From an uncultured archaeon (GTDB taxonomy: Archaea > Altiarchaeota > Altiarchaeia > IMC4 > SCGC-AAA252-I15), in NCBI GenBank assembly GCA_902384455.1, contig CABMCB010000059.1, positions 1-64,000 of the forward strand: a DNA stretch of 64,000 nt, in the 5' to 3' direction. Positions 2,794 to 60,422 of this stretch are shown piece after piece. Position 1 is the stretch's first letter; each line of letters opens with the position of its first letter. The position numbers and the translations under genes were made by a program. The notes beneath the pieces are model-generated. The model did no database searches. It was not told the DNA's origin and was given only the letters and a program-made list of their open reading frames with translations.

Positions 2794-3331
2794 ACCGGTA
2801 GTACAGTGGGTGCTGTACCAGGAAGACGACCATCGGCAACCTGGCAAGATTGTGAACCTGGGAGACGGCGCGGGAATGACGCGTCTCGGCATCACGTCGA
2901 ACAACTTCGGTGCTTACGTCGCTCCGAACTTTTTCACGGACATGTCTTTCACAGCCGCAGTCGTTCAGGCCAAGAAGGTCTACCGCGAACACTTCTGGAA
3001 TCTGTTCCACGGAGACAACATCGTGGCGAACGACTGCGCTGCGGTACTGCTGAGCAGTTCGGTCAACATCCGTGGTGGAGTTTCACATTCTGTGAAGATG
3101 CTCCAGCAGGTTCTCGGCGTGGAACAAGACGGCATTCTCGGACCAAAGACCGTGGACGAACTGAACTCCAAGGACAATCGCATCGTCGCGAACATGTTCA
3201 GAGGCGCGTGGGAGAACTTCTATCACGAACTGGTAGCGATGAACCCCGCGAAGGCTCAGTTCATGGACGGCTGGAAGGCTCGTGTTTGGTTTCCTTTCCC
3301 ATCGGATAAGGTACCGGACATTTATGAGTAG
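2780..3331 (+). CDS. GH108-like lysozyme/endolysin with peptidoglycan-binding domain
   Basis: E...DGAGMTRLGIT, YREHFW, LQQVLGVEQDGILGPKT, FMDGWKAR; GGAG RBS. Confidence 0.8.
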   Translation: MALFEPVVQWVLYQEDDHRQPGKIVNLGDGAGMTRLGITSNNFGAYVAPNFFTDMSFTAAVVQAKKVYREHFWNLFHGDNIVANDCAAVLLSSSVNIRGGVSHSVKMLQQVLGVEQDGILGPKTVDELNSKDNRIVANMFRGAWENFYHELVAMNPAKAQFMDGWKARVWFPFPSDKVPDIYE

Positions 3332-49309: not shown

Positions 49310-49387
49310 TGGTCGGAGAAGAAAGATTTGAACTTTCGTTCTCTGCTTTCCGAAAGCAGCGGGAACTCCAGGCTTCCCCATTCCCCG
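49310..49387 (-). tRNA. tRNA-Pro(CGG)
   Basis: Cloverleaf; loop TT-CGG-AA; CCA encoded. Confidence 0.9.
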
Positions 49388-49394
49388 ACTGGTG

Positions 49395-49694
49395 TTACGA
49401 CAAATTTTTTGTAATCTTCGGCATCAGCGCGGACTGCTTGAATCTCTGTCCGCCAAAAGAAACGATGTTCATGTCCGGGGTCGGGTCGCTTGCGCCCCAG
49501 TTGAAGATGACCACTTCGTGCTGCTTGGCCTTGTCCAAGAGTTCCGCGAAATCCGCCGGATGAATGTATGTCACTTCACCAGGTAGACCATAGCCTCGGT
49601 GAAGCTGAGCAATCACTGCTCTTGCTTCATCGAGTTCTTTTTTGTACCAGGTCAGTTCTGCTTCTGCTGCCTGGGCCATGCGGACAAGACTCAT
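49395..49694 (-). CDS. Hypothetical protein
   Basis: AAGGA RBS; between tRNAs. Confidence 0.55.
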   Translation of the reverse strand: MSLVRMAQAAEAELTWYKKELDEARAVIAQLHRGYGLPGEVTYIHPADFAELLDKAKQHEVVIFNWGASDPTPDMNIVSFGGQRFKQSALMPKITKNLS

Positions 49695-49711
49695 ATTGGT
49701 CCTTTTGAAAA

Positions 49712-49785
49712 TGGTCGAGAATGCTGGAATCGAACCAACCCCACATGCTCCCAAAGCACGCGTGCGGCCACAACACTTATTCTCG
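49712..49785 (-). tRNA. tRNA-Pro(UGG)
   Basis: Loop TT-TGG-GA; CCA. Confidence 0.9.
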
Positions 49786-49792
49786 ACTAAAC

Positions 49793-50209
49793 TTACGGCA
49801 AAATCTTTTTCTCAATCGCTGCAACCGTGATTGCGCGATAGTGGTCACCGGATGCGGCCTTCGCACCGTGGTCCGGCTGAATCCATTCCAACCAGCGGTT
49901 CATCGCTCTGCCCCACAGATGACCCTTCAGCTTTGCGCGATACGCGTGTGCTGAAATTGTTTCACCGGGCATGCCGTTGAACGCGAGCACGTTGATGAAC
50001 TGGTCAAACGCCACTAGCACTCTGTGCAAGTATGACTCACGCGATGCACGCTGCTCGGCGTGTGCTTCGTCTTCTGCTGTGAATGGCTTCTCAATGTCGA
50101 AGTGTCCTTCGACGGCGGCGCGGATAGATGTCATCACCAAACCCATTGCAACTAAACCAGCAATAGAACCTGCGATTATCTTTCCTGCTAGAAGCAATCC
50201 GTGTAGCAT
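49793..50209 (-). CDS. Membrane protein
   Basis: TM helix; DQFIN...G.P.ETISA motif. Confidence 0.65.
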   Translation of the reverse strand: MLHGLLLAGKIIAGSIAGLVAMGLVMTSIRAAVEGHFDIEKPFTAEDEAHAEQRASRESYLHRVLVAFDQFINVLAFNGMPGETISAHAYRAKLKGHLWGRAMNRWLEWIQPDHGAKAASGDHYRAITVAAIEKKILP

Positions 50210-50223
50210 TGTTCTCCAAAATT

Positions 50224-50298
50224 TGGTTCGGGCGGCACGACTCGAACGTGCATTAACTGGGTCAGAGCCAGTGTTCCTGCCAATTGAAAGACATCCGA
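50224..50298 (-). tRNA. tRNA-Gln(CUG)
   Basis: Loop CT-CTG-AC; CCA. Confidence 0.9.
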
Positions 50299-50368
50299 AC
50301 AGGGCCTACAATTCCGGGCCTTACATCAGGTTCTGAGGCCTAATGCCTGGAAATCTAGGCTTAAAGCT

Positions 50369-50443
50369 TGGTTGGGGCGAGTGGACTCGAACCACTATTA
50401 GAAGTTTCAAAGACTTCCTTCCTGCCAATTGAAAGACATCCCA
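50369..50443 (-). tRNA. tRNA-Gln(UUG)
   Basis: Loop CT-TTG-AA; same D arm as Gln(CUG). Confidence 0.9.
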
Positions 50444-50451
50444 ACGGAAAT

Positions 50452-50667
50452 TTACGGGAGCGGCGACTTCTGTAGATACATCGCCAAACCCAGTATAGCC
50501 GACGCGGCGGAGCCGATTGCGGCCATGATGAGAACATTATGAATGCCAACACCGGGTCGTAGGTTAAAACTCTGTGGCGCGATTCCTATCGCGGAGAAAG
50601 CGTTAATGACACCGCCTGCTGCTCCGCTAATCATCGCTGCCAACAGTCCCTTGGACCAGGGCTTCAT
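50452..50667 (-). CDS. Small two-TM protein (holin-like)
   Basis: AGGAG RBS; ends YLQKSPLP. Confidence 0.6.
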   Translation of the reverse strand: MKPWSKGLLAAMISGAAGGVINAFSAIGIAPQSFNLRPGVGIHNVLIMAAIGSAASAILGLAMYLQKSPLP

Positions 50668-50681
50668 AGTGCTCCTAAAAT

Positions 50682-50755
50682 TGGACCGCCCGAGTGGAGT
50701 CGAACCACTGGTGCCTCTTTTGCAGAGAGGTAGCTTGCCGTTTGCCGACGAGCGG
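50682..50755 (-). tRNA. tRNA-Cys(GCA)
   Basis: Loop CT-GCA-AA; U73. Confidence 0.9.
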
Positions 50756-50756
50756 T

Positions 50757-50843
50757 TGGCGGATGATGAAGGAATCGAACCCTCTCTACCTTTCAGTAGG
50801 CACAGTTTTCAAGACTGCTAGCCCCCATGGACTGCAATCATCC
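50757..50843 (-). tRNA. tRNA-Ser(UGA)
   Basis: Loop CT-TGA-AA; long variable arm; G73. Confidence 0.85.
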
Positions 50844-50852
50844 GTAAAATTT

Positions 50853-50940
50853 TGGCGGAAGGTAAGTGAATCGAACACTTACAACCTTTCGGTTGACTTA
50901 GGTTTAGCAAACCTATACGTTGCCTTTCCGTCAACCTTCC
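50853..50940 (-). tRNA. tRNA-Ser(GCU)
   Basis: Loop TT-GCT-AA; long variable arm; G73. Confidence 0.9.
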
Positions 50941-50943
50941 GCG

Positions 50944-51261
50944 TTACTTCTTGTCTGCGCCGCACTCACCCATCATCACCGTCTTGATTACGTGGTGATT
51001 GGCGCAACGAACTACACATTTAGCAATTTCAGCAAGAACCGTTTCCCACTTCCGACTTGAACCTGCCGCAATCTTGAACGACTTCGTGCTCGGGTCTACG
51101 TGGTCAAACTCCAAGGCAGCTGGATGCCAAACTGTTCCGGGTGCGCAATCCACGCAACCGCTGGATAGTTTGATGGCATCGACCTTGGCGCGAAACTCAA
51201 CATACTTCCTGGCCTGATATGACCGTTGTTGTTTCCGCGATTCTTCTGTTCTGATTCTCAT
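50944..51261 (-). CDS. HNH homing endonuclease
   Basis: CVDC...LEFDHV...EIAKCVVRCANHH. Confidence 0.85.
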   Translation of the reverse strand: MRIRTEESRKQQRSYQARKYVEFRAKVDAIKLSSGCVDCAPGTVWHPAALEFDHVDPSTKSFKIAAGSSRKWETVLAEIAKCVVRCANHHVIKTVMMGECGADKK

Positions 51262-51268
51262 AAATATA

Positions 51269-51552
51269 TTAGTGAGCGTTAGCCTGGATTCTGTATTCCG
51301 GAATACGGAATGACTATCATCCATCTTCGCCTGCTACCCGACCTTCATCACGCTCAACCAGCGCTCCGGTCCTATTTGCAGTTGCACCGATGTGGAGTGC
51401 CCAGTCTTGAATTAACTACGCTGGCCTTACCCGTACTCTCGCGAGTCCCGCAACTTCCACGGCATCGAGTTGAGATGTGTCCAGAACTTCCTCGGTCGCG
51501 TCGGCAAAGGCCGAAACTTTATAGCGCGGACCGCGATAGTCTAGCTCACTAA
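51269..51552 (-). ncRNA. rnpB: RNase P RNA (compact, type-A-like catalytic domain)
   Basis: P1 AGTGAGC/GCTCACT; P2 GACTATC/GATAGTC; CR-I GAGGAAGTTCTGGA; CR-V ACAGAATCCAGGCTAA; P6 CTCAAC/GTTGAG; P7 CGATG/CATCG; GCAA-CTGC-AAATAG...GGGTA-GCAG (P15/L15). Confidence 0.9.
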
Positions 51553-51872
51553 TCTAGTTTAACGTAACCGATGATACACAAAACCGCGACGAATGTCAAC
51601 ATAGAAATTGCGCCTGCGACAATCATCACATCGCCCGGGCTGTAAAGCCATCCCCGGAAACTGATGTAGTCCGCCAGGTATTTCAGGCTGGCGTCTGATG
51701 ACATCGTGCAATGGGTCATGTTCGTGACCTGAAACGGCCAGTCCCATCTGCCGTGATATGCGACCGGCATGAACCCGCCGTTGGCCCACATCACTAGTTT
51801 GTTCATCAAGCCGCCGCCGATATAAGAGCCGAGGCCTGCGAGCGCCCACTTCAAAAAACTTTTGCGCTTCAT
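51549..51872 (-). CDS. Membrane protein (DUF5317-like)
   Basis: N.LVMWANGGFMPV...LAD...SPGD. Confidence 0.65.
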   Translation of the reverse strand: MKRKSFLKWALAGLGSYIGGGLMNKLVMWANGGFMPVAYHGRWDWPFQVTNMTHCTMSSDASLKYLADYISFRGWLYSPGDVMIVAGAISMLTFVAVLCIIGYVKLD

Positions 51873-52636
51873 GACGCCGCTTCGGCCTTCGACACATCCG
51901 CTCGGATGTGACTGATAGGCACCGCGATTGTCGGTGTGGTCGTTCCATCGTAACCGCCGATGACCAACCCGATAATTCTGTGCGTCTTTTCGCTTACGAT
52001 TGCGCTGCCGGATGCGCCGTGCGAATCAAACTGCTGCACGAGCATCATGCCGTGAACCGCTGAGCCAGCCGGAGCGATAACGCTCGCGACACTGCCTCTC
52101 GTCATCTGCTTCGTCATCTTCTCACCGAGTGAGAAATTGACATCCACAGTTGCGTCACCAACGGCGACATCTGATTCGTCGCCCAGTTCGATGACTGGAA
52201 TCTTCGCGTCGGTCTTCATGTAGTAGACCGCGTAGTCTTGGTACTCGACGCCGTCTTCATTCGGCTCAATCACTTCGGCCTTCAGAAGCTTCACGGGCGT
52301 CTTCTCCGTGCCGACGTTGTCGGACACCGAGTAAACCAAACCCTTCGGCAAATCTTCCGGATTGCCCTCGGCGGTGCAGTGCCCTGCACCAATCAATTCG
52401 TAACCGCCAGCGACCTTCTTGAACGCGGTGACCGTGCACAAGAAGTGCGTCACGTCGTGGTCGTTCTTGATTACGCCGTCGTCCGTCTCTATTTCCGCGC
52501 CAGCAGGCAGCGTACCATAGAGCGCCATGCTCGCTTGGTAAACTTTACCGTCGAAGCCGCGAGGTGTCTTCACATCCGCGAACGCCGACGAACAAACCAA
52601 AATCAAAGCCGCTACGAGAGAGAAAATCTTTCTCAT
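51869..52636 (-). CDS. Secreted trypsin-like serine protease
   Basis: Signal peptide; AGHC, QDYA, HGASGS catalytic triad. Confidence 0.85.
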   Translation of the reverse strand: MRKIFSLVAALILVCSSAFADVKTPRGFDGKVYQASMALYGTLPAGAEIETDDGVIKNDHDVTHFLCTVTAFKKVAGGYELIGAGHCTAEGNPEDLPKGLVYSVSDNVGTEKTPVKLLKAEVIEPNEDGVEYQDYAVYYMKTDAKIPVIELGDESDVAVGDATVDVNFSLGEKMTKQMTRGSVASVIAPAGSAVHGMMLVQQFDSHGASGSAIVSEKTHRIIGLVIGGYDGTTTPTIAVPISHIRADVSKAEAAS

Positions 52637-52743
52637 CTACATTTGCCCGTCAGACACGCCTTGGCAGAGCACCGGTGTCAGACATGCGCCGTTCCAATTG
52701 GACCCTCTGCTCGGCGAACATCAGCAAATCAGCTATTAAGTTT

Positions 52744-52818
52744 TGGACGACCCGTCGGGACTTGAACCCGAATCCTCGGTTTAGGAAACCGTAACTCTTT
52801 CCATTGAGCTACAGGTCG
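52744..52818 (-). tRNA. tRNA-Arg(CCU)
   Basis: Loop TT-CCT-AA. Confidence 0.9.
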
Positions 52819-52819
52819 T

Positions 52820-52894
52820 TGGTAGGCCGTGGAGGAATCGAACCTCCATTCAGCGCTTAGAAGGCGCTAGTCCTGTCCGTTGAACGAACAGCCC
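52820..52894 (-). tRNA. tRNA-Arg(UCU)
   Basis: Loop CT-TCT-AA. Confidence 0.9.
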
Positions 52895-52900
52895 ACAGAA

Positions 52901-52981
52901 AAGTTGCCGACCGCCTTGTCCGTCTGGCTCCACAGGTTTTCAAGACCCGTGCCGGGAGTCGAACCCGGTTTTGTCGGACTT
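52901..52981 (-). ncRNA. Circularly permuted tRNA-like RNA (YrlA/Y-RNA-like) no. 1
   Basis: GTCCGAC-aaaa-CCGGG-TTCGACT-CCCGG-CACGGGT-cttgaaa-ACCTGTG-GA-GCC-agacggacaa-GGC-G-GTCGG. Confidence 0.75.
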
Positions 52982-53039
52982 GTCGGGCGCGTGGCTGGCC
53001 GTGTCACAGCCCTTTGGACTCGCGTTATCCGACTGAAAT

Positions 53040-53113
53040 TGGCAGGACGCGTAGGAATTGAACCCACTCCGTTCGGGTTGGAGCCGAACATGCTACCGTA
53101 ACACTTGCGACCT
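53040..53113 (-). tRNA. tRNA-Trp(CCA)
   Basis: Loop CT-CCA-AC. Confidence 0.9.
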
Positions 53114-53163
53114 GTAGTGCTCAAGAGCACACTGGGTGAGTTAGTGTGCCCTTGAGGTAAGAC

Positions 53164-53239
53164 TGGAGCGTGATACCAGATTCGAACTGGTGCGTACTGG
53201 GTGGAAGCCAGTCATGCTAGCCGCTAACATCAATCGCGC
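53164..53239 (-). tRNA. tRNA-Gly(UCC)
   Basis: Loop CT-TCC-AC; U73. Confidence 0.9.
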
Positions 53240-53248
53240 TCGAAACTA

Positions 53249-53518
53249 TTAAACTGTTGGTGCCGGAGCAAGTGCTGCTACGACGGTTGCATCTACCGCG
53301 TCAACTGCTGCTGCGTCTGCCGCGTCCTTCGCTGCTACTGCTGCTGCTACAGCGGTCGGGCCATTTTCAGCAATCAACTTAGCGATGTCTGCTTGCAACT
53401 TTGCCATGCTGTCTGCGAATGCCATCATTTCTCTCCGTAGTGCGTGAAGTAACAACCTGTCTTGATGCGATAGTTCGACTACTAACTTCGGGTTAGGTGA
53501 TTGGGCTTTTCCAAACAT
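53249..53518 (-). CDS. Small Ala-rich protein
   Basis: GAGG RBS; start uncertain. Confidence 0.5.
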   Translation of the reverse strand: MFGKAQSPNPKLVVELSHQDRLLLHALRREMMAFADSMAKLQADIAKLIAENGPTAVAAAVAAKDAADAAAVDAVDATVVAALAPAPTV

Positions 53519-53540
53519 TCGAACCTCGCTTTCAATTTTT

Positions 53541-53614
53541 TGGAGCGACGTACCAGAATCGAACTGGTGCCCGAACCTTGGCAAGGTTCTGTTCTACCAC
53601 TATACCAACATCGC
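53541..53614 (-). tRNA. tRNA-Gly(GCC)
   Basis: Loop TT-GCC-AA. Confidence 0.9.
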
Positions 53615-53617
53615 TCG

Positions 53618-53953
53618 TTACAAACCTCTGAACATCACCATGGCCTTTTCGTGGAGCACCAACTGCTCTGGTGTCATCTGGCCCACAACCTTGCGGAAGC
53701 GGCCCATCTTTCTGTTCACGTTCGGCCTGGTCGGGATGGTCGTCCTTACTGCTAGAGGACCGTCACCGTTCTGTTGCTCAACGAACTGTCTCGCCTGTGC
53801 TTCAGAACTAAATCTCTTCTCAACAATTTCTCCGGTGTTGTTGTCCAACTTCGTCGCGGAGTGTCCGAGCCAGTTCCACTTGTCTCCGTGGTTGCGCTCG
53901 TGCGGCAATCTTTTGCGGTCTTCATTTTCATGCTTCGGACGTTCGATTCGCAT
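53618..53953 (-). CDS. Hypothetical basic protein
   Basis: AAGGTG RBS; fills the gap between tRNAs. Confidence 0.55.
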   Translation of the reverse strand: MRIERPKHENEDRKRLPHERNHGDKWNWLGHSATKLDNNTGEIVEKRFSSEAQARQFVEQQNGDGPLAVRTTIPTRPNVNRKMGRFRKVVGQMTPEQLVLHEKAMVMFRGL

Positions 53954-53966
53954 AGTCACCTTAAAA

Positions 53967-54040
53967 TGGTACCCGTGGTCGGAATCGAACCGACGCTACG
54001 TCCGTGAGAGGGACGCGTTCTACCACTAGACTACATGGGC
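53967..54040 (-). tRNA. tRNA-Glu(CUC)
   Basis: Loop CT-CTC-AC. Confidence 0.9.
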
Positions 54041-54048
54041 ACAGAAAA

Positions 54049-54123
54049 TGGCGGAGATAGCGGGAATCGAACCCGCACTTTGCCCGTGACAGGGGCATGT
54101 CGTTACCAACTGACCCTATCTCC
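54049..54123 (-). tRNA. tRNA-Asp(GUC)
   Basis: Loop CT-GTC-AC; G73. Confidence 0.9.
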
Positions 54124-54130
54124 GCGAAAC

Positions 54131-54204
54131 TGGAGCTTCGTAAAGGAATTGAACCTTTACCTCATCCTTACCAAGGATGCGTTCTGCCGTTGAACTAACA
54201 AAGC
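54131..54204 (-). tRNA. tRNA-Thr(GGU)
   Basis: Loop TT-GGT-AA. Confidence 0.9.
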
Positions 54205-54214
54205 GTAAAACTTA

Positions 54215-54293
54215 TCCGGTGTGCTACCGTTACACTATAGCAACGAGCGGCTTTACCCGTTCCCGCCTGTGGGATTCGAACCCCTCTACCGGA
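54215..54293 (-). ncRNA. Circularly permuted tRNA-like RNA no. 2
   Basis: TCCGGT-ag..GGG-TTCGAAT-CCC-[hairpin]-TAGTGTAACGGTAGCAC-ACCGGA. Confidence 0.6.
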
Positions 54294-54297
54294 AGAT

Positions 54298-54371
54298 TGG
54301 AGCACCGTCGTGGAATCGAACCACGGCTTCTGCGCTACGAGGGCAGCTTCATGCCACTAGAACAACAGTGC
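54298..54371 (-). tRNA. tRNA-Thr(CGU)
   Basis: Loop CT-CGT-AG; C31:C39 mismatch. Confidence 0.85.
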
Positions 54372-54379
54372 AAAACTTT

Positions 54380-54488
54380 TGGAGGAAGTCCCTCTCACTT
54401 GGCCCATCCGGCGCAGGGCACCCCGAAGGGCTGGAGGTCCGCTTTCGACTGTGAAGAAGAAGCGTACTTACCGTTGAAGACTTCCTTC
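54380..54488 (-). ncRNA. CCA-ended structured RNA of unknown type
   Basis: AGGAAGTC/GACTTCCT then CCA; CGCTT/AAGCG arm; CCC-TTCG-GGG tetraloop hairpin. Confidence 0.5.
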
Positions 54489-54507
54489 GCCTTGCGGCGA
54501 GTAATCA

Positions 54508-54583
54508 TGGAGCACATCGCTGGATTCGAACCAACGTGTCGAAGGTACAAGCTTCGCATACTAGACCGCTGTATGAGACGTGC
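54508..54583 (-). tRNA. tRNA-Thr(UGU)
   Basis: Loop CT-TGT-AC. Confidence 0.9.
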
Positions 54584-54589
54584 TCGATA

Positions 54590-54665
54590 TGGCGTATCCC
54601 CTAGGATTTGAACCTAGGACCCTTCGGTTAACAGCCGAATGCTCTGGCCGCTGAGCTAGGGATAC
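54590..54665 (-). tRNA. tRNA-Asn(GUU)
   Basis: Loop CT-GTT-AA; G73. Confidence 0.9.
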
Positions 54666-54670
54666 AAAGA

Positions 54671-54758
54671 TGGCTGGAGCAGCAGGACTCGAACCTGCAA
54701 TGTGCTTTCGCACTGCCTGGGTAACAGCCAGGTGCTGTACCAATTGAGCCACACTCCA
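54671..54758 (-). tRNA. tRNA(GUU), Asn anticodon with long variable arm
   Basis: Loop CT-GTT-AC; variable arm GTGC-GAAA-GCAC; G73; 88 nt. Confidence 0.85.
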
Positions 54759-54768
54759 GTAGAAATTT

Positions 54769-54843
54769 TGGAGCACCCACTCGGAATCGAACCGAGATAG
54801 TCAGTTTCGAAGACTGATGCCCTATCCGTTGGACGACAGGTGC
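54769..54843 (-). tRNA. tRNA-Arg(UCG)
   Basis: Loop CT-TCG-AA. Confidence 0.9.
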
Positions 54844-55160
54844 TCGTGTGTTCTGATGCGATGACAATTTGCACAAACGACATCGCATTTCGAAATTTCT
54901 TCCAGTAACTTCTCCATTGAGGAGTTGTGATAGCCGCTGGAAATGTTGAACTTCTTTACTCCGCGAACATGGTCAAAATCCATGCACACAGATGGGAACT
55001 TGTTCCCGCAATCAGCACACGCGACGTTCTTAGCTGGCTCGATTATCTCCGCGTACAGTCTTTCTTTCCGTTTCGCGGATTTGTCGATGTAATACTGCTT
55101 GTGGTTTTTGTAATGCCTTCGGCCACAAGCTTTAGCCAGTTCTGAATTAGCGTACGCCAT
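54822..55160 (-). CDS. HNH homing endonuclease; stop codon inside tRNA-Arg(UCG)
   Basis: CADCG...MDFDHV...EISKCDVVCANCH. Confidence 0.85.
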   Translation of the reverse strand: MAYANSELAKACGRRHYKNHKQYYIDKSAKRKERLYAEIIEPAKNVACADCGNKFPSVCMDFDHVRGVKKFNISSGYHNSSMEKLLEEISKCDVVCANCHRIRTHEHLSSNG

Positions 55161-55164
55161 AAAT

Positions 55165-55241
55165 TGGTAGACCGTGGTGGATTTGAACCAACCATTATAG
55201 CCTTCGCAGGGCTATGTCCTATCCAGTTGAACGAACAGTCC
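55165..55241 (-). tRNA. tRNA-Arg(GCG)
   Basis: TAGCC-CT-GCG-AA-GGCTA. Confidence 0.9.
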
Positions 55242-55279
55242 ACATTAAATCGTACTTTCGAAAATTTGTCAAGAACTAT

Positions 55280-55954
55280 TTAGTTCAGTACTTCAACAAC
55301 TGCGGTTCTCATCTGGATAGATGAAAGCGCTGAGCCGGTCACAGCCTGCAACAGCAGGTTGTTCGTGCTCGCTGCGGTCAAGTTAACCGCTATGCCAGCC
55401 GCTACGTTGGTGTCCTGATACTCTGACATCGGAGCGGTTGCTGAAGCACCAATCAAGATTGCCAAAGCGCCGTGTCCTTCAAGCGTACCGGATGCACCGG
55501 TTGAAACTGTGTAAATGTGGCCTTCGAAGTTCCATGGGAAGTTCGTTTGTGAGGCCGTTGTCGCTTGGCTCGTCGCGGTCAAAACCGTCTGAGTGAAAGC
55601 GCCAGAGAAACCTAGCTGAATACCAATCGTCGGCGTCTGTGCGCCAGCCGTGGTGTAAATGCCCCACATGCGTACGCGAAGAACCTTTCCGGCGACGTTC
55701 ATGAACGCGGTCGGTAGCGCCAATGTGGCGAACGTTCCCGTGCCGTTCAATGCCGTCAGTGCAGCCGGAGCCGCGTTGTAAACAATCGCTGCGCCGCCTA
55801 GAGCGTAGTTCAAACCGTTCCAGAAGTACTTGCCCGACTTCTGCGTCGTATCGTACCAGTAATCTCCGTCAATCGGAGAAGCCGGTGCAACACCGGACGG
55901 AATGTTCAAGGGCGCTGCTGCCGCTGTTGAGTTCGGCAATGTGAGAAATGACAT
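55280..55954 (-). CDS. Tail-fibre-like Ala/Thr/Gly-rich protein
   Basis: APLNIPSGVAPASPIDGDYWYD head motif; GAGGAG RBS. Confidence 0.6.
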   Translation of the reverse strand: MSFLTLPNSTAAAAPLNIPSGVAPASPIDGDYWYDTTQKSGKYFWNGLNYALGGAAIVYNAAPAALTALNGTGTFATLALPTAFMNVAGKVLRVRMWGIYTTAGAQTPTIGIQLGFSGAFTQTVLTATSQATTASQTNFPWNFEGHIYTVSTGASGTLEGHGALAILIGASATAPMSEYQDTNVAAGIAVNLTAASTNNLLLQAVTGSALSSIQMRTAVVEVLN

Positions 55955-56037
55955 TTCTCCTCTCTTCGGCTACGCGCCGATATCACTGATGATGCAACTT
56001 GTACAAGATGAAAAGACTGATTGCTACACCAAGGACG

Positions 56038-56283
56038 TTACACACTGTTCGGGTCACTGCCAGCGCTAGGTCCAGTCTTTGGTGGTTCATTCTTCTCTTC
56101 TTTGCGCTTGGTCCGTTGCTCGTACCATTTGCGCCGTAAATCCAGATATTCCTTCTGCGCCGCGAGACTTTCCTGACTAACTTTCAGGCTCTCTTCAGCC
56201 ATGCGCTTCATTGCGTGGTCGTCGATGTAGATTGCGACCAGGATGAATATTTCTAAGACAAGAAGTGCATCCTGCCAAGTCAT
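56038..56283 (-). CDS. Small membrane protein
   Basis: TM helix plus coiled coil. Confidence 0.55.
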   Translation of the reverse strand: MTWQDALLVLEIFILVAIYIDDHAMKRMAEESLKVSQESLAAQKEYLDLRRKWYEQRTKRKEEKNEPPKTGPSAGSDPNSV

Positions 56284-56298
56284 AGTCACCTTCAAAAT

Positions 56299-56374
56299 TG
56301 GTACCCAGTGAGTGAATCGAACACTCCCCACCTCTTTGTAGGAGAGGCGCATACGACCAGTTTGCTAACCGGGT
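56299..56374 (-). tRNA. tRNA-Val(UAC), C33
   Basis: Loop CC-TAC-AA. Confidence 0.85.
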
Positions 56375-56682
56375 AATGCCTTAGCGATTTGTTGTTTCTT
56401 GATTCTCGCGTAAGGACGAATCTTTTTCAAAAACTCTCTTGCATTTCTGTTTGACACTATCCATCGCCAAACCTTTTTGTTGGTTCGTTTATCAGATGTG
56501 TGAATAGTGCCGAACTTAAAAAGGCGTTGAACGAACTTCAAAACTTTCACGTCTGTGTTCGTTATCGTTGCAATCGTTCGAAAATAATACTTGCCGTTCT
56601 TCGTTGCCTGATATTTCGCGAAACGGCAATGGCCTTCACCATCGAACAACCCACTCACATAAGCTAAGTCGATTTTTCTCAC
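56365..56682 (-). CDS. Single-motif LAGLIDADG homing endonuclease; stop codon inside tRNA-Val
   Basis: LAYVSGLFDGEG, ITNTD..VL, FL..IRPY..IKKQQ. Confidence 0.85.
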   Translation of the reverse strand: MRKIDLAYVSGLFDGEGHCRFAKYQATKNGKYYFRTIATITNTDVKVLKFVQRLFKFGTIHTSDKRTNKKVWRWIVSNRNAREFLKKIRPYARIKKQQIAKALPG

Positions 56683-56701
56683 TTAGTGCCTTTCGTAAAC
56701 T

Positions 56702-56775
56702 TGGTGGACCGCCGGAGAGTCGAACTCCGTCTTGATGCGTGCAAGGCAACCGTATTCCCGTCCTACTCGCAGCCC
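56702..56775 (-). tRNA. tRNA-Ala(UGC)
   Basis: Loop CT-TGC-AC; G3:U70. Confidence 0.9.
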
Positions 56776-56783
56776 ACATAAAT

Positions 56784-56857
56784 TGGTTGCGGATGTCGGA
56801 GTCGAGCCGACCAGCAGTGCTTATGAGACACCGTACCTCACCCGAGGTGTACCCGCA
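56784..56857 (-). tRNA. tRNA(CAU), Met/fMet-like, atypical
   Basis: Loop CT-CAT-AA; T loop CTCGACT; irregular D arm. Confidence 0.75.
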
Positions 56858-56866
56858 AAAGAAAAT

Positions 56867-56942
56867 TGGTAGCGTCGGCGGGATTCGAACCCGCGTGAGG
56901 ACCTTGAAAGGGTCCCATCCTAGGCCACTAGATGACATCGCC
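56867..56942 (-). tRNA. tRNA-Glu(UUC)
   Basis: Loop CT-TTC-AA. Confidence 0.9.
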
Positions 56943-57055
56943 ACAAAAGAAGCTAGAGCATGGCTTCTTTACAACTTCAGCTTACGCAAGGCTCCCGGCT
57001 GAAGCGCCCATACAGCGGGTGTTTACCGAGTAAACAACCCACATATGGGTTAAAT

Positions 57056-57140
57056 TGGTACCCCGTGAGAGATTTGAACTCCCATGGCTGTTAACCGACG
57101 CGTTCTAAGCGCGTTGTGTCTGCCGTTCCACCAACAGGGC
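57056..57140 (-). tRNA. tRNA-Leu(UAG)
   Basis: Loop CT-TAG-AA; long variable arm. Confidence 0.9.
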
Positions 57141-57151
57141 ACTGAAACTTA

Positions 57152-57211
57152 TGGAGCGGTCACTACCTGTGTGACAGGCACCTCCCCGGGCACTGCCCGG
57201 GAGCACCGCTC
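57152..57211 (-). ncRNA. CCA-ended two-arm mini-RNA
   Basis: GAGCGGT/ACCGCTC-CA closing stem; TCCCGGGC/GCCCGGGG and TGCCTGT/ACAGGTA arms. Confidence 0.5.
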
Positions 57212-57213
57212 GC

Positions 57214-57396
57214 TTACTTACGCATGTCTCGCACATGCTGGTAATATGAAAGCTGGTCCACCGGACGGTCGTGGTCATGACGACGGTCTTCGATGTCCGC
57301 GCTCATCGGATAATCTTTCGGGACTTGAAATCCCTTTGACGTATCCTTCGCGTCTCCGACAACTTTCATGCCTAGCTTCGGCTTATCGTCGGGCAT
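57214..57396 (-). CDS. Small hypothetical protein
   Basis: GAGGT RBS. Confidence 0.55.
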   Translation of the reverse strand: MPDDKPKLGMKVVGDAKDTSKGFQVPKDYPMSADIEDRRHDHDRPVDQLSYYQHVRDMRK

Positions 57397-57408
57397 ATTA
57401 CCTCAAAC

Positions 57409-57483
57409 TGGTAGTCTCTCTGTGACTCGAACACAGGTCTCTCGCTAATCAGGCAAGCATCCTAGCCGCTGGACGAAAAGACT
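57409..57483 (-). tRNA. tRNA-Ile(GAU), U37
   Basis: Loop CT-GAT-TA. Confidence 0.85.
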
Positions 57484-57491
57484 ACTGAAAT

Positions 57492-57582
57492 TGGTGGATG
57501 CGGAATGATTCGAACATTCTATGTGCCACAAGGACATCCTGTTTTACAGACAGGTACGACCCGCCGTCTTCGCCGCACATCC
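57492..57582 (-). tRNA. tRNA-Tyr(GUA)
   Basis: Loop CT-GTA-AA; long variable arm. Confidence 0.85.
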
Positions 57583-57593
57583 ACTGAAACTAA

Positions 57594-57680
57594 GGGAACC
57601 CACGGGTCACTCACCCGCGCCAATCACGGGTCCGGTACCGGATATCCGTAATCGTTCAATCTACCTCGAACTGCGTTCCC
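57594..57680 (-). ncRNA. Four-way-junction structured RNA
   Basis: GGGAAC/GTTCCC closing stem with three internal hairpins. Confidence 0.5.
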
Positions 57681-57688
57681 ACGAAACT

Positions 57689-57764
57689 TGGTGGGTCGCC
57701 AGCGACTTGAACGCTGAACTTGCTCCTTAAAAGGGAGAAATGTTGCCGCTAACACCTGCAACCC
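57689..57764 (-). tRNA. tRNA-Lys(UUU)
   Basis: Loop CT-TTT-AA. Confidence 0.9.
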
Positions 57765-57797
57765 ACGATAATCGGTAACGTTCTACCGATTGAAACT

Positions 57798-57872
57798 TGG
57801 TGGACTACCAGGGATTCGAACCCTGACCAAACTCGTTAAGAGCGAGCTATGCAACCGTAACACCTGTGGTCC
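57798..57872 (-). tRNA. tRNA-Lys(CUU)
   Basis: Loop CT-CTT-AA. Confidence 0.9.
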
Positions 57873-58020
57873 ACTGAAAAATCTGACAGCTTGTTGTCAT
57901 GGAACGGACTTTAATCGGAGTTCTACCGATGCTGTCTACGCCGTCTCACGTTGTATCCCCGCGTGAAGACTGTGTTCACGCCTCATGTTAAGCGACGACA
58001 CTGTCTCGTCGCGGGAAGAT

Positions 58021-58109
58021 TGGTACTCGATGAAGGAATCGGACCTTCGTGCAAGCGTAATCTACGCCGACTCGTTATAAGCGAGTGCCGCAAACCATCG
58101 CAATCGAGT
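58021..58109 (-). tRNA. tRNA(UAU), Ile anticodon with long variable arm
   Basis: ACTCG-CT-TAT-AA-CGAGT; variable arm GCGTA-GAT-TACGC; T loop TCCGATT; ACTCGAT/ATCGAGT-A-CCA. Confidence 0.8.
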
Positions 58110-58115
58110 AAAAAG

Positions 58116-58224
58116 TTGTCCGGAGCGTACGCTTTCGGCGTCTCACCCGCCATCACGAATGCCGCGTCAACGGCACTGACTTCCCCTCGTTAGACTCGGT
58201 TGACGCCGGTCGCGAGTCGGACAA
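58116..58224 (-). ncRNA. Structured spacer RNA
   Basis: TTGTCCG/CGGACAA outer stem; GCGTCAAC/GTTGACGC inner stem. Confidence 0.45.
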
Positions 58225-58226
58225 AT

Positions 58227-58305
58227 TGGTGCGCCGCGTGAGATTCGAACTCACATGTGGTCACGTTTTAAGTGTGCCGCGTATGCCGCATTCCGCCAGC
58301 AGCGC
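58227..58305 (-). tRNA. tRNA-Leu(UAA) lacking the long variable arm
   Basis: Leu-type D arm; loop CT-TAA-AA; 79 nt. Confidence 0.8.
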
Positions 58306-58532
58306 TAAACTCTTGTGCTCGTCGCGGAAGCTAGCGTATCGCTGGTTCCGGGCTGATACGCAACCGTACCTGAAGCACAAACATCGCTAGGGTCAACAAC
58401 CCATTGCTTCCATGCCAGCCGGGTTGCAACCCGTAGGCACTTCAGATGTGGACTTCTACCACGCGAAAACTTATGAGACAGCCCTGGCCGAAGCCACTCC
58501 GGGTAATACCTTAGTCTTACGTCTCAAACTTT

Positions 58533-58593
58533 TTCGGTGTGCCCACTACACTACTTCTGGCTAGGCCAGCACGGAGTCGAACCGTCTACCGAA
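58533..58593 (-). ncRNA. Circularly permuted tRNA-like RNA no. 3 (minimal)
   Basis: TTCGGT-ag-ACGG-TTCGACT-CCGT-g-CTGGC-cta-GCCAG-aag-TAGTGTAGTGGGCAC-ACCGAA. Confidence 0.65.
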
Positions 58594-58596
58594 TCT

Positions 58597-58683
58597 TGGT
58601 CGCCCACACAGGACTCGAACCTGTACGCTTTTCACGGCACCGGGTTTTGAATCCGGCATGTCTGCCAGTTCCATCAGCAGGCG
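58597..58683 (-). tRNA. tRNA-Leu(CAA)
   Basis: Loop TT-CAA-AA; long variable arm. Confidence 0.9.
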
Positions 58684-58742
58684 AAATTCTCCCGGCAAAG
58701 GCCGGGAAGGGGTGGTTACCTCAGCGCTAAGCGCTCCTAAAT

Positions 58743-58816
58743 TGGTCCCTGCTGTTTGAATCGAACAAACACGACCGGCTTTTCAGACCGGGATGCGACC
58801 ACTACATCAAACAGGG
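58743..58816 (-). tRNA. tRNA-Phe(GAA)
   Basis: Loop CT-GAA-AA. Confidence 0.9.
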
Positions 58817-58817
58817 T

Positions 58818-58892
58818 TGGGGCGAACGTCGGGATTCGAACCCGAACCGGCGGATTCACAGTCCACCGTGCTGCCGTTACACTACACACGCC
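58818..58892 (-). tRNA. tRNA-His(GUG)
   Basis: Loop CT-GTG-AA; G-1:C73. Confidence 0.9.
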
Positions 58893-58978
58893 ACATAAAC
58901 TTTGGGGCCAGCACACGATTGTCTACGTGCCGCCGTCTTTACGCTCTTTCGAACGCCCCTCCGAAACTCGACTTGGTG

Positions 58979-59007
58979 ATTCTCTCACAACTTCGAAATC
59001 TTGTCAA
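58979..59007 (-). promoter_or_regulatory. Sigma70-type promoter of the tRNA operon
   Basis: TTGACA-17 bp-GAGAAT with extended TG. Confidence 0.65.
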
Positions 59008-59154
59008 GCCTTTTTTACAGCTTGCTCTCGATTTTCTTTGCGATGGCCGAACCCTCTGCCACCTTGGCTTCCTTCACGAACAAAGCCTTAATCTTGCGAC
59101 CGACCGCCGGGGTGAATGCTCCCAGGACATAGCCGACTGCCATCAACATCAAAG

Positions 59155-59183
59155 AGTGTAGCATTTTCTGTTTTTCCTGTCAA
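59155..59183 (-). promoter_or_regulatory. Sigma70-type promoter
   Basis: TTGACA-17 bp-TACACT with extended TG. Confidence 0.75.
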
Positions 59184-59190
59184 GGGTTTT

Positions 59191-59505
59191 TTACCAGAGA
59201 CCCTTGAACGCTCTCATTTTCGCTAGGCGGAGCATTCCTTTCTCGAACCGTGGACCGTGGTCAACCTTGTACGGCAGGCTGACGTGGACCATCTCGTGCA
59301 ACAGCGTCATGCGAAATCCGCCGCGCCATGTGCGCAACGTGTTTTCAATCAAAATCCGCTTCGGCACCTTGCCTTCGTACTGCGTAATGCCTATAGCGTT
59401 GTATTTCTCGACCAATCCCTTTCTGAACAGCACGGGGATATTCGGAAGCTTGCCTCGGAAGTACAGCCGGTTATACCTTCGGTACAAGCGCTGCTGCCGG
59501 GTCAT
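59191..59505 (-). CDS. SprT-like zinc metalloprotease
   Basis: YNRLYFRGKLP, TLLHEMVH, HGPRF. Confidence 0.8.
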   Translation of the reverse strand: MTRQQRLYRRYNRLYFRGKLPNIPVLFRKGLVEKYNAIGITQYEGKVPKRILIENTLRTWRGGFRMTLLHEMVHVSLPYKVDHGPRFEKGMLRLAKMRAFKGLW

Positions 59506-59702
59506 TAGACCATCTTTGCTGCTTCGTTCTTCGCTTCGGAGTCAGTCGGATAACGCTTCGGGTGCTGAACCGGGTCGGTCAACAGCGGCATGCCGTTGCG
59601 ACCGCACTGAATCTTCACGCACTCGTAAGCCGCCTTCGCTCGAACCTTGGCTTCACCCTGCTTCGACTTCGGGACTGCTGTACGCTGCGGATATCCTTCC
59701 AT
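59505..59702 (-). CDS. Small hypothetical protein
   Basis: GGAG RBS; TAATG coupling. Confidence 0.5.
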   Translation of the reverse strand: MEGYPQRTAVPKSKQGEAKVRAKAAYECVKIQCGRNGMPLLTDPVQHPKRYPTDSEAKNEAAKMV

Positions 59703-59721
59703 GTCAAACTCCGTTACTCGG

Positions 59722-59934
59722 CTATACGCCGTTGTTCAACTCAATCGCTTCGAACCGGTCGTCGTCCAAAACCATCGACTCACCCGGCTCCAAATAGTGC
59801 TGCTTGTCCTCTCGGTCGTAGACCACGACCAGTTTCTTGCCGACGTTCGCAATCCGGTACCCGTAAGACATCGGGTCCATGTAGACCGTGATTGAGCCGT
59901 TGGCCGGGGTGATGTACCTCTGACCCATTGCCAT
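59722..59934 (-). CDS. Small hypothetical protein
   Basis: Coupled to the upstream ORF. Confidence 0.55.
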   Translation of the reverse strand: MAMGQRYITPANGSITVYMDPMSYGYRIANVGKKLVVVYDREDKQHYLEPGESMVLDDDRFEAIELNNGV

Positions 59935-60422
59935 TATGAACCAAAGTGCTTTCGGGTGTCAAGACCCAAATGCTTGAACGCGGCGACGACTTTTTCGCGG
60001 AACTCGTCAAACTCTTCCCGGCGGATGCGCGGGTTGCTGATGTCGAGCGCGGCCAGGAATCCTAGTTCGCTCGCGGCCTGCTCGACCAGGGTGTCGAGAA
60101 CCTTCTGGCCCTCGGGAGTGTCAAAAATTGTCACATCGCCGGTTTGCGCTGCGCGGGATGCGCTCGCGGTCGCCGGAGTGAGAAATGGGTTGGGATTGCC
60201 CATCGTGTCGGTCTCGGACTTCATGTCGAAGCCTTCGTGCTTCTGCAGAATGGAGAGGATGGCCTCGGCGTCGGGCTTGGCCGGACTGTATCCGGGGCCT
60301 TTATCGAAATCGGTCTGAGATTCGGTCTCAGCGGCCTTAACTTCTGCGGCTTCAAGTTTTTGGCGCTCGAATGCCTGTCCCGCCGTCTCAGGGACGCGGT
60401 TGACTATCGTTTCGGTGCTCAT
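59934..60422 (-). CDS. Hypothetical acidic protein
   Basis: AAGGA RBS before MSTE. Confidence 0.6.
   Translation of the reverse strand: MSTETIVNRVPETAGQAFERQKLEAAEVKAAETESQTDFDKGPGYSPAKPDAEAILSILQKHEGFDMKSETDTMGNPNPFLTPATASASRAAQTGDVTIFDTPEGQKVLDTLVEQAASELGFLAALDISNPRIRREEFDEFREKVVAAFKHLGLDTRKHFGS

What the first reader, a model, noticed from the sequence alone, without database searches (positions are those of the whole stretch)
58533..58593. Minimal 61-nt permuted tRNA elbow (T arm before D arm)
Seen: a closing stem TTCGGT/ACCGAA encloses a T arm (ACGG-TTCGACT-CCGT), a short hairpin CTGGC-cta-GCCAG and a D arm (TA-GTGT-AGTGG-GCAC). It shares CGGTAG...TAGTGTA..GG..GCACACCG with the element at 54215-54293, so the two are one family. 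Inference: a stripped tRNA-elbow mimic with neither anticodon nor CCA, which could act as a decoy for elbow-reading proteins.
Basis: partly seen in the sequence, partly recalled or inferred. Interest (0 to 1): 0.72.

Follow-up and report, generated by a model that had tools for sequence, protein, structure and literature searches.

The report
Handle-less Y-RNA head in phage
A 61-base gene in a phage's row of tRNA genes encodes a tRNA-shaped RNA with a sealed acceptor end and no anticodon: it is the "head" of the known Y RNAs, here in a phage that lacks both the Y-RNA stem and the Ro60 partner protein that some of its relatives carry.

Summary
On the minus strand (the strand of all 35 tRNA genes), 58533-58593 folds as described: a 6-bp closing helix, a T arm, a 5-bp capped hairpin and a D arm.

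- **Not a tRNA or a junction.** It is neither a tRNA nor a junction of two tRNAs.
- **Independent model.** A covariance model built only from 25 unrelated IMG/VR phage elements ranks it second in the 64-kb window at 44.5 bits. First is its paralog at 54215-54293 at 52.5 bits.
- **Closest known kind.** This is the tRNA-like head of YrlA Y RNAs (Chen 2014; Wang 2018), which has the same permuted topology.
- **Why it is not filed as YrlA.** It fails the Rfam model, has no room for a Ro-binding stem (3 nt after the CCA of tRNA-Leu), and its D/T stems differ. The circular 99.8-kb phage genome has no Ro60 gene.
- **Relatives.** Three related phages do have Ro60, with stem-bearing heads of the same sequence type. 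In two of them these lie directly upstream of Ro60.
- **Weaknesses.** This copy has no ortholog and no expression data, and tandem-tRNA junctions score nearly as high.

The function as a tRNA-body mimic or decoy is inferred. The scan has noted similar handle-less mimics in other phages. Rating: new variant of a known kind.

The parts
58533..58593 (-). The whole element e1 (61 nt): a permuted tRNA-like core
   Evidence: Minimum-energy fold equals the described structure. Scores 44.5 bits, E 5.9e-12, with model R3, which was built from unrelated phages. Scores 35.4 bits with R2, which was built without it.
58588..58593 (-). 5' strand of the closing helix (TTCGGT), the equivalent of the anticodon-stem 3' strand plus position 44
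   Evidence: Pairs with 58533-58538. It starts 3 nt after the CCA of tRNA-Leu.
58571..58585 (-). T arm: ACGG / TTCGACT / CCGT
   Evidence: The T-loop letters match the tRNA and YrlA consensus shown.
58557..58569 (-). Capped acceptor-like hairpin: CTGGC-CTA-GCCAG
   Evidence: In 23 distinct IMG/VR relatives this helix is 94% paired, and all 7 pairs show changes on both sides.
58539..58551 (-). D arm: GTGT-AGTGG-GCAC, preceded by TA at 58552-58553
   Evidence: The same D-arm sequence type occurs in e2, G009, G001, G020 and the Ro60-adjacent RNAs of G004 and G008. The loop is 2 nt shorter than in those.
58533..58538 (-). 3' strand of the closing helix (ACCGAA)
58526..58532 (-). AAAGTTT spacer after the element, the same kind of T-rich trailer that follows most tRNA genes of the array
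   Evidence: list of the 8 nt after each of the 35 tRNAs
58597..58683 (-). tRNA-Leu(caa), complete with encoded CCA, directly upstream
   Evidence: ARAGORN. Rfam tRNA 38.7 bits.
58979..59183 (-). Two sigma-70-like promoter matches (10 of 12) upstream of tRNA-His. They probably start the transcript that includes e1.
   Evidence: 3 found against 0.7 expected. Consensus match only.
54215..54293 (-). e2, a paralog of e1 (79 nt), between tRNA-Thr(cgt) and tRNA-Thr(ggt)
   Evidence: R3 52.5 bits. Its ortholog in G009 differs at 8 of 81 columns: 2 compensatory pairs and 0 disruptive changes.
52907..52977 (-). e3, a third permuted tRNA-like core with a different sequence (7-bp cap), inside a larger 145-nt gap RNA
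   Evidence: Its ortholog on contig C38 shows 4 double changes and 1 single change in the stems, with 1 pair broken.

Best explanation
e1 is a small non-coding RNA gene of the permuted tRNA-mimic kind. It is a tRNA body whose ends lie in the anticodon-stem equivalent and whose acceptor end is sealed by a loop.

It belongs to a sequence type (D arm TAGTGTA..GG..GCAC) that is widespread in phage tRNA arrays. In related phages this type forms the head of stem-bearing Y RNAs encoded next to Ro60. In this complete, Ro60-less phage only the head is left.

Inferred mechanism:
- It is transcribed with the tRNA array from the promoters upstream of tRNA-His.
- It is cut out at the same T-rich spacers that flank the tRNAs.
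- It folds into an L shape through the T-loop/D-loop contact.
- It cannot be charged or decode.
- It acts through its body as a mimic that occupies a tRNA-binding or Y-RNA-head-binding factor.

Shown here: sequence, fold, family membership, lack of a stem, and lack of Ro60. Inferred: transcription, processing, L shape, and any binding partner.
For: **Fold.** The predicted fold equals the described structure.

**It occupies its own slot.** The intact tRNA-Leu CCA lies 3 nt upstream, a T-rich trailer follows, and no tRNA halves flank it.

**Models built without it find it.**
- R3, from 25 IMG/VR elements and no window sequence, gives 44.5 bits (E 5.9e-12). That is second in the window, after e2 at 52.5 bits.
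- R2, built without e1, gives 35.4 bits, the best hit outside its training set.

**Covariation in relatives chosen by a sequence pattern that did not ask for these helices**:
- T stem 99% paired.
- Cap hairpin 94% paired, with changes on both sides at 7 of 7 pairs.
- 0 of 500 shuffles reach the observed covariation score.

**The paralog e2 is kept in G009.** There are 2 compensatory pairs and no disruptive change among 8 differences.

**Link to Y RNAs.**
- The topology is the same as the YrlA head (passages of PMC4201824 and of bioRxiv 10.1101/312249; Rfam consensus).
- The same head type lies directly upstream of the Ro60-like ORF, on the same strand, in G004 (59.1 bits) and G008 (two copies, 50.2 bits each).

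**This phage lacks the partner.** The genome is circular and has no Ro60 and none of the family's stem motif pair.
Against: - No ortholog of e1 itself was found in the 19 related records searched. The syntenic Leu(caa)-to-Ile(tat) slot of G002 and G001 lacks it.
- e1 is the most reduced member: a 4-bp T stem with a G-G mismatch outside it, a 5-nt D loop, 2 nt in place of a variable loop, and 3 extra nt before the TA. No 15-48 pair is evident.
- Junctions of tandem tRNAs score 36.7 bits in the window and 43.4 bits in relatives with the same model. The score alone therefore does not separate e1 from such junctions.
- The closing helix is only 66% paired across the IMG/VR set.
- Folding energy is not better than shuffles.
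- No data on expression or RNA ends were obtained.
Confidence: 0.62

Rival explanations
1. e1 is a decaying, functionless copy. It would be a shrunken duplicate of the e2-type element, or the leftover middle of a tandem tRNA pair, that still folds by descent.
For: No ortholog in 19 related records. It has the most reduced features of the family. It sits in a roughly 370-nt lineage-specific insertion relative to G002 and G001. tRNA-dimer junctions give similar model scores.
Against: All four helices are intact and form the minimum-energy fold. Its borders match those of e2 and of the other flush array members, 3-4 nt after a CCA. No tRNA among 531 is a close donor of either half. The sister element e2 is maintained by compensatory change.
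Confidence: 0.22
2. e1 is a cis-acting part of tRNA-Leu maturation. As a stable structure 3 nt behind the CCA, it would set or protect the 3' end of tRNA-Leu or punctuate the polycistronic transcript, with no role in trans.
For: e1, e2, and the G014 and G009 elements all start 3-4 nt after an encoded CCA without the usual T-rich trailer in between.
Against: Elements of the same sequence type stand alone next to Ro60 in G004 and G008, with no tRNA called by ARAGORN in those loci. A simple hairpin would serve as well. The T-loop and D-loop letters needed for an elbow are kept.
Confidence: 0.08
3. e1 is a working Y RNA that uses a Ro60 protein supplied by the host.
For: The head type is Ro60-linked in relatives.
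Against: There is no room for the Ro-binding stem: the 5' flank is tRNA-Leu. No stem motif pair occurs on the contig. No TROVE domain was found in the 2.4-Mb bin, which is 92% complete, though its status as host is not established.
Confidence: 0.05
4. e1 is a true circularly permuted tRNA gene whose transcript is circularised and reopened to give a decoding tRNA.
For: The order of the halves is that of permuted tRNA genes in algae and one archaeon, as cited in the passages of bioRxiv 10.1101/312249.
Against: The closing helix encloses no anticodon-loop letters. The acceptor-like stem has 5 bp and no discriminator or CCA. No tRNA model matches it. RtcB occurs only on contig C11, and no RNA-ligase or Tpt1 family match lies on this contig.
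Confidence: 0.03

Closest known systems
YrlA (Y RNA-like A; Rfam RF02553), the tRNA-like Y RNAs bound by Ro60/Rsr in bacteria and mycobacteriophages (Chen et al. 2014, PMC4201824; Wang et al. 2018, bioRxiv 10.1101/312249)
   Same: The order is the same: T arm, closed acceptor-like stem-loop, D arm, with the RNA ends in the anticodon-stem equivalent (a 'circularly permuted tRNA with a closed acceptor stem'). The cap is of similar size: 6 bp plus about 3 nt in the Rfam consensus, against 5 bp plus 3 nt here. T-loop and D-loop GG letters are shared. Relatives of this phage have the same head type next to a Ro60-like gene.
   Different: - No Ro-binding stem, and no space for one.
- No Ro60 gene in the complete genome.
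- No match to RF02553 even at E 10. The best family members reach only 17-24 bits against a gathering score of 69.
- The D and T stems read GTGT/GCAC and ACGG/CCGT, not the YrlA consensus GCUC/GAGC and GCGGG/CCCGC.
- It lies flush inside a tRNA array.
Circularly permuted tRNA genes of red and green algae and one archaeon (Soma 2007 and others, known to me only through the passages of 10.1101/312249)
   Same: The 3' half precedes the 5' half, the acceptor stem is closed at first, and the ends pair as an anticodon stem.
   Different: Those transcripts carry the anticodon loop in their flanks and mature into decoding tRNAs through splicing endonuclease and ligase. e1 has no anticodon letters, a 5-bp cap and no CCA.
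Junctions of tandem tRNA genes (the known false positive of YrlA searches, PMC4201824 methods passage)
   Same: A T arm followed by a D arm. The models built here score such junctions at 36.7-43.4 bits.
   Different: e1 lacks the outer halves of both would-be tRNAs. ARAGORN and Rfam find no tRNA over it.

Membership tests
YrlA (RF02553) | Permuted order (T arm, closed acceptor-like stem, D arm) closed by an anticodon-stem-like helix | tested here: met
   Fold. Compare the model consensus and the passages.
YrlA (RF02553) | Score at or above the Rfam gathering score (69 bits) | tested here: not met
   No YrlA match at E up to 10, either in 126 nt around e1 or in the 10.5-kb array.
YrlA (RF02553) | Ro60-binding stem formed by the 5' and 3' ends, with the conserved 5'-strand motif (GNCGAAN0-1G, PMC4201824) | tested here: not met
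   Only 3 nt separate the closing helix from the CCA of tRNA-Leu. The stem motif pair of this phage family's own Y RNAs is absent from the contig: 0 of 4 sites.
YrlA (RF02553) | Encoded within about 4 kb of, and on the same strand as, a Ro60 (TROVE) gene | tested here: not met
   No TROVE match in the assembly. tblastn with the Ro-like ORFs of G001, G004 and G008 finds nothing. The contig is circular, so it is complete.
YrlA (RF02553) | Nearly invariant YrlA D-stem and T-stem sequences | tested here: not met
   e1 has GTGT/GCAC and ACGG/CCGT, against GCUC/GAGC and GCGGG/CCCGC in the consensus.
YrlA (RF02553) | tRNA-like tertiary contacts (T loop with D-loop GG, U8-A14, 15-48 pair) and modification by TruB/DusA | not testable with these tools
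   Letters for the T loop, GG, and T8/A14 are present. No standard 15-48 pair is evident. No 3D or modification data are available.
   44.5 bits, E 5.9e-12, full-length alignment. Caveat: tandem-tRNA junctions reach 36.7 and 43.4 bits.
   ARAGORN and Rfam call no tRNA over 58533-58593. tRNA-Leu ends at 58597.
tRNA (RF00005) | Cloverleaf with an anticodon arm and a free acceptor end | tested here: not met
   No ARAGORN or Rfam tRNA hit. There is no anticodon loop and the acceptor is capped.
Circularly permuted tRNA genes | Flanks that supply an anticodon loop, and a 7-bp acceptor stem that can be reopened and given CCA | tested here: not met
   The flanks are the tRNA-Leu CCA plus 3 nt on one side and a T-rich spacer on the other. 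The cap is 5 bp.

The most novel reading that the evidence does not exclude
Orphan Y-RNA heads are a Ro60-independent class of phage effector RNAs. Stripped of the stem, the tRNA-shaped head is made in bulk from the tRNA operon. It would titrate either the still unknown factor that binds the head of host Y RNAs or a tRNA-targeting defence nuclease or sensor, and so protect phage translation. The loss of Ro60 and the stem in this lineage, with retention of the heads, would then mark a change of function and not decay.
Probability: 0.15. Interest if true: 0.8.

Novelty: new variant of a known kind. Interest (0 to 1): 0.5.

Why it matters
Y RNAs are understood as two-part adaptors: a stem that docks on Ro60 and a head that recruits something else. 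What the tRNA-like head of YrlA binds is still unknown (passages).

One phage family holds both forms. Some members carry the full form next to Ro60. A complete, Ro60-less genome keeps only heads, embedded in its tRNA operon. This is a natural separation of the two parts. If the heads are expressed, they can serve as bait to find the head's partner, and they may be a further use of phage tRNA arrays beside decoding.

On the practical side, tRNA and Rfam annotation miss these genes.

Tried and rejected
**Searches that found nothing or only false positives**
- Megablast of 56000-60000 against GenBank phages: no match.
- blastn of e1 against the same collection: one 35-nt tRNA-junction hit, E 0.6.
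- IUPAC scans of IMG/VR with e1/e2 end motifs: 40 and 3 loci, nearly all ordinary tRNAs.
- The search for related loci with two array-internal proteins: no relatives.

**Modelling attempts that did not work**
- MAFFT alignments of family members were mis-registered and were not used for models.
- A single-sequence model of the G010 element scored e1 at only 12.7 bits, within the noise.

**Sequencing runs**
- No RNA holder was listed.
- Two DNA runs held identical pieces, so they gave no variants, no RNA ends and no expression information.

**Other checks**
- The second half of Tunturiibacter phage Tunturi_3, the closest isolate at 36% portal identity, holds no element. Its first half was not examined.
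- RNA-repair links: RtcB lies on contig C11 only, RNA_ligase on C68 and C71, and there is no Tpt1 or CCA-adding-enzyme family match. No link to e1 followed.
- Coding was rejected: only ORFs of 63 aa or fewer overlap e1.
- L160 19292-19358 and L022 2861-2938 were dropped as doubtful before models and counts were made.

Full report
**What is there.** The window holds 34 tRNA genes by ARAGORN, all on the minus strand between 49310 and 58891. Rfam adds one more at 56705-56775. All 35 encode their CCA.

Read on that strand, 58593 to 58533 runs as follows:
- TTCGGT
- AG
- ACGG-TTCGACT-CCGT
- G
- CTGGC-CTA-GCCAG
- AAGTA
- GTGT-AGTGG-GCAC
- ACCGAA

The plus strand does not give this fold. The energy is not special (z = -0.86; 35 of 200 shuffles fold as well), but the neighbouring tRNAs range from z = +0.70 to -2.43. 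Energy therefore decides nothing.

The element starts 3 nt after the CCA of an intact tRNA-Leu(caa) at 58597-58683. It is followed by AAAGTTT, the kind of T-rich trailer that follows most tRNAs of the array. Two promoter-like sites lie upstream of tRNA-His, and no convincing terminator lies in between. Only ORFs of 63 aa or fewer overlap it.

**The genome.**
- The window is the first 64 kb of a 99,937-bp contig.
- The first 127 nt of that contig equal its last 127 nt, so it is a closed, complete phage genome.
- It encodes a terminase, an SU10-type portal and an integrase-like protein.
- The closest isolate is Tunturiibacter phage Tunturi_3, at 36% portal identity.
- The portal finds 74 IMG/VR loci at 39-81% identity.
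- 19 of the 20 records I asked for were held, and I fetched their tRNA arrays.

**Not a tRNA, a junction or a scar.**
- ARAGORN and Rfam find no tRNA over e1, even at E 10 in a 126-nt search.
- A junction of two tRNAs would need the outer halves, and they are absent.
- Against 531 tRNAs of this assembly's three array contigs and the fetched arrays, the two halves reach local scores of only 17 (32-nt half) and 15 (29-nt half). No recent donor tRNA is therefore in view.

**The family in this window and its relatives.** My descriptor scan asks for a closing stem of at least 5 bp, a T arm, a capped hairpin and a D arm with GG.
- On this contig it finds e1, e2 (54215-54293) and e3 (52907-52977). 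It also finds two hits whose T arm is in a called tRNA and one other hit.
- The other 2.31 Mb gives 16 free hits. One of them is the ortholog of e3 on contig C38.
- In the relatives' arrays it finds an e2 ortholog in G009, and further permuted cores in G014, G010 and G011.
- Models later added one core in G006/G017 and one in G001.

The two ortholog pairs are clearly alike in sequence, so they test the structure fairly:
- e2 against G009: 8 differences in 81 columns. Two are compensatory pairs, one adds a pair, three lie in loops, and none breaks a helix.
- e3 against C38: 4 double changes and 1 single change in stems, with 1 pair broken.
- With only two sequences each, the shuffle controls are weak (122 of 500 and 25 of 500 shuffles reach the observed values).

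The 10-member alignment A8 is 95.7% paired, with double changes at 18 of 22 pairs. Its members were picked by a scanner that demands these helices and were aligned to the structure, so I give it little weight.

**An independent test of e1.** A pattern scan of IMG/VR asked only for a T loop, then 14-44 nt, then the D-arm letters TAGTGTA..GG..GCAC.
- By ARAGORN, 56 were tRNA junctions, 33 touched one tRNA and 28 were free.
- I gave 26 of the 28 free loci to model R2 (two repeats of the same sequences were left out). 25 of them matched at E up to 1e-6.
- In these 25 (23 distinct), the T stem is 99% paired. The cap hairpin is 94% paired, with changes on both sides at all 7 pairs. The closing helix is only 66% paired. 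The D stem was fixed by the pattern.
- Model R3, built from these 25 alone, ranks e2 first (52.5 bits) and e1 second (44.5 bits, E 5.9e-12) in the whole window with filters off. The best tRNA junction scores 36.7 bits.
- In the relatives' arrays a tandem tRNA-Gly junction reaches 43.4 bits.

The score therefore shows membership of the architecture. Only the missing tRNA halves separate e1 from a junction.

R2, built from 10 members without e1, gave e1 35.4 bits, the best hit outside its training set. Junctions reached 33.7 bits.

**What it is like.** I read Chen et al. 2014 (PMC4201824) as abstract, searched passages and section 5. I read Wang et al. 2018 (bioRxiv 10.1101/312249) as searched passages only.
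- They describe the head of YrlA Y RNAs as a T stem-loop, then a closed acceptor-like stem-loop, then a D stem-loop. [quoted passage not shown]
- They warn that dimeric tRNAs are false positives.
- Only the M. smegmatis YrlA, with a 7-bp acceptor stem, is cut by RNase P and given CCA. e1's 5-bp cap predicts that it stays closed.

The Rfam consensus shows the same head plus two outer helices, the Ro60 handle. The G010 element matches RF02553 at 23.9 bits, against a gathering score of 69. Other members reach 15-24 bits. e1 does not match at all.

**Ro60.**
- No TROVE domain is found in this assembly.
- The Ro-like ORFs of relatives find nothing in it by tblastn.
- Of 29 records searched, 8 have a TROVE match: relatives G001, G004 and G008, and pattern-found carriers G026, G028, G030, G031 and G032.
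- Records at least 90% complete that carry an element but have no TROVE match are G014, G020, G025, G029 and G035.

R3 finds elements with the same D arm directly upstream of the Ro-like ORF and on its strand. There is one in G004 (59.1 bits) and two in G008 (50.2 bits each). In those, the head sits on a long outer stem with an extra hairpin, and Ro-linked IMG/VR members also fold with long outer stems.

A motif pair taken from those stems occurs in G001, G002, G004 and G008. It occurs nowhere on this contig: 0 of 4 sites with the 5' motif have the 3' motif.

So within one phage family, members with Ro60 have heads with stems. This complete Ro60-less genome has only flush, stem-less heads in its tRNA array.

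**How it most likely works.** This part is inferred.
- e1 is co-transcribed with the tRNAs.
- It is released at the T-rich spacers by the host's tRNA-processing nucleases.
- It folds into a small L shape.
- It is possibly a substrate of T-loop modification enzymes, as YrlA is.
- It acts as a non-decoding tRNA-body mimic.
- Its partner is unknown. The YrlA literature itself leaves the head's partner open.

I put 0.62 on 'real small RNA of this kind' and much less on any named target.

**Rivals.** The main rival is a decaying copy (0.22). e1 has no ortholog, sits in a lineage-specific insertion relative to G002 and G001, and is the most reduced member. The other rivals are a cis role at the tRNA-Leu 3' end, use of a host Ro60, and a true permuted tRNA gene. 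Each is weighed in its own section.

**Novelty.** The class is known, so this is a new variant of a known kind.
- Searches for YrlA with 'tRNA-like', YrlA with 'phage', 'permuted tRNA' with 'phage', and 'tRNA mimic'/'bacteriophage'/'tRNA array' found no description of stem-less heads in Ro60-less phage tRNA arrays (passages checked).
- That library lacks most subscription journals.
- I could not see the supplementary tables of PMC4201824, which list the phage YrlA RNAs.
- Earlier notes of this scan report similar handle-less mimics in other phages. I treat them as leads, not support.

Noticed in passing
window 51264-51553 (-): An RNase P class-A-like RNA lies inside the tRNA array: 79.8 bits, below the gathering score of 100, E 2.7e-23, full model span in only 290 nt. 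Counterparts occur in the array of contig C38 (25222-25559, 95 bits) and in relative G010 (L120 651-980, 81.2 bits). In this bin no bacterial RNase P RNA reaches the gathering score. This may be a phage-encoded reduced RNase P RNA.
   Followed up: partly
window 52895-53039 (-): The 145-nt gap RNA that contains e3 also has a roughly 60-nt 5' domain. It is 88% identical over 74 nt to C38 22326-22399. Its role is unknown. It competes with the closing helix of e3 in the predicted fold.
   Followed up: partly
window 58384-58467 (-): A structured stretch downstream of e1 is 88% identical to G002 3161-3244. There it lies between tRNA-Lys(ttt) and tRNA-Tyr, so non-tRNA modules move between slots of these arrays.
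   Followed up: no
window 56705-56775 (-) and 58227-58305 (-): ARAGORN misses a tRNA that Rfam finds at 39.6 bits (56705-56775). ARAGORN calls an odd 79-nt 'tRNA-Phe(aaa)' with its anticodon at position 37 (58227-58305; Rfam 41.9 bits).
   Followed up: no
window 49310-58891 (-): All 35 tRNAs encode CCA. In 23 of 35 the 14 nt before the next gene hold a (A/G)TTT or TTTT motif, and most CCA ends are followed directly by A/G-TTT. This is probably a processing signal.
   Followed up: partly
G000 contigs C4, C38, C59: Three phage-like contigs with 25, 30 and 34 tRNA genes sit in one 2.4-Mb bin, so most of the bin's tRNA genes are viral. The bin is not a safe guide to the host.
   Followed up: no
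L166 9135-9519 (G001), L148 4912-5121 (G002), L299 and L300: In relatives, the stem motif pair recurs two to four times in tandem at 46-190 nt spacing, some units without a tRNA-like head. These look like arrays of several Y RNAs, head-bearing and head-less, comparable to YrlA and YrlB.
   Followed up: partly
L014 2106-2184 and 2692-2765 (G020, a 182-kb complete IMG/VR phage): Two permuted tRNA-like elements lie in one tRNA array of an unrelated, Ro60-less, complete phage genome. One of them sits between two tRNA-Val genes and has the same D arm as e1 and e2.
   Followed up: partly
window 54844-55164 and 50941-51260 (-): By eye, small ORFs between tRNA genes carry Cys pairs and an H-N-H-like pattern (homing endonuclease-like). 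This was not tested with a profile.
   Followed up: no
L180 (Tunturiibacter phage Tunturi_3, 50001-97608): As deposited, the closest isolate is annotated with two RNA ligases, an RNA 2'-phosphotransferase and a phosphoesterase, which is an RNA-repair set. None of these families was found on the window's contig.
   Followed up: partly
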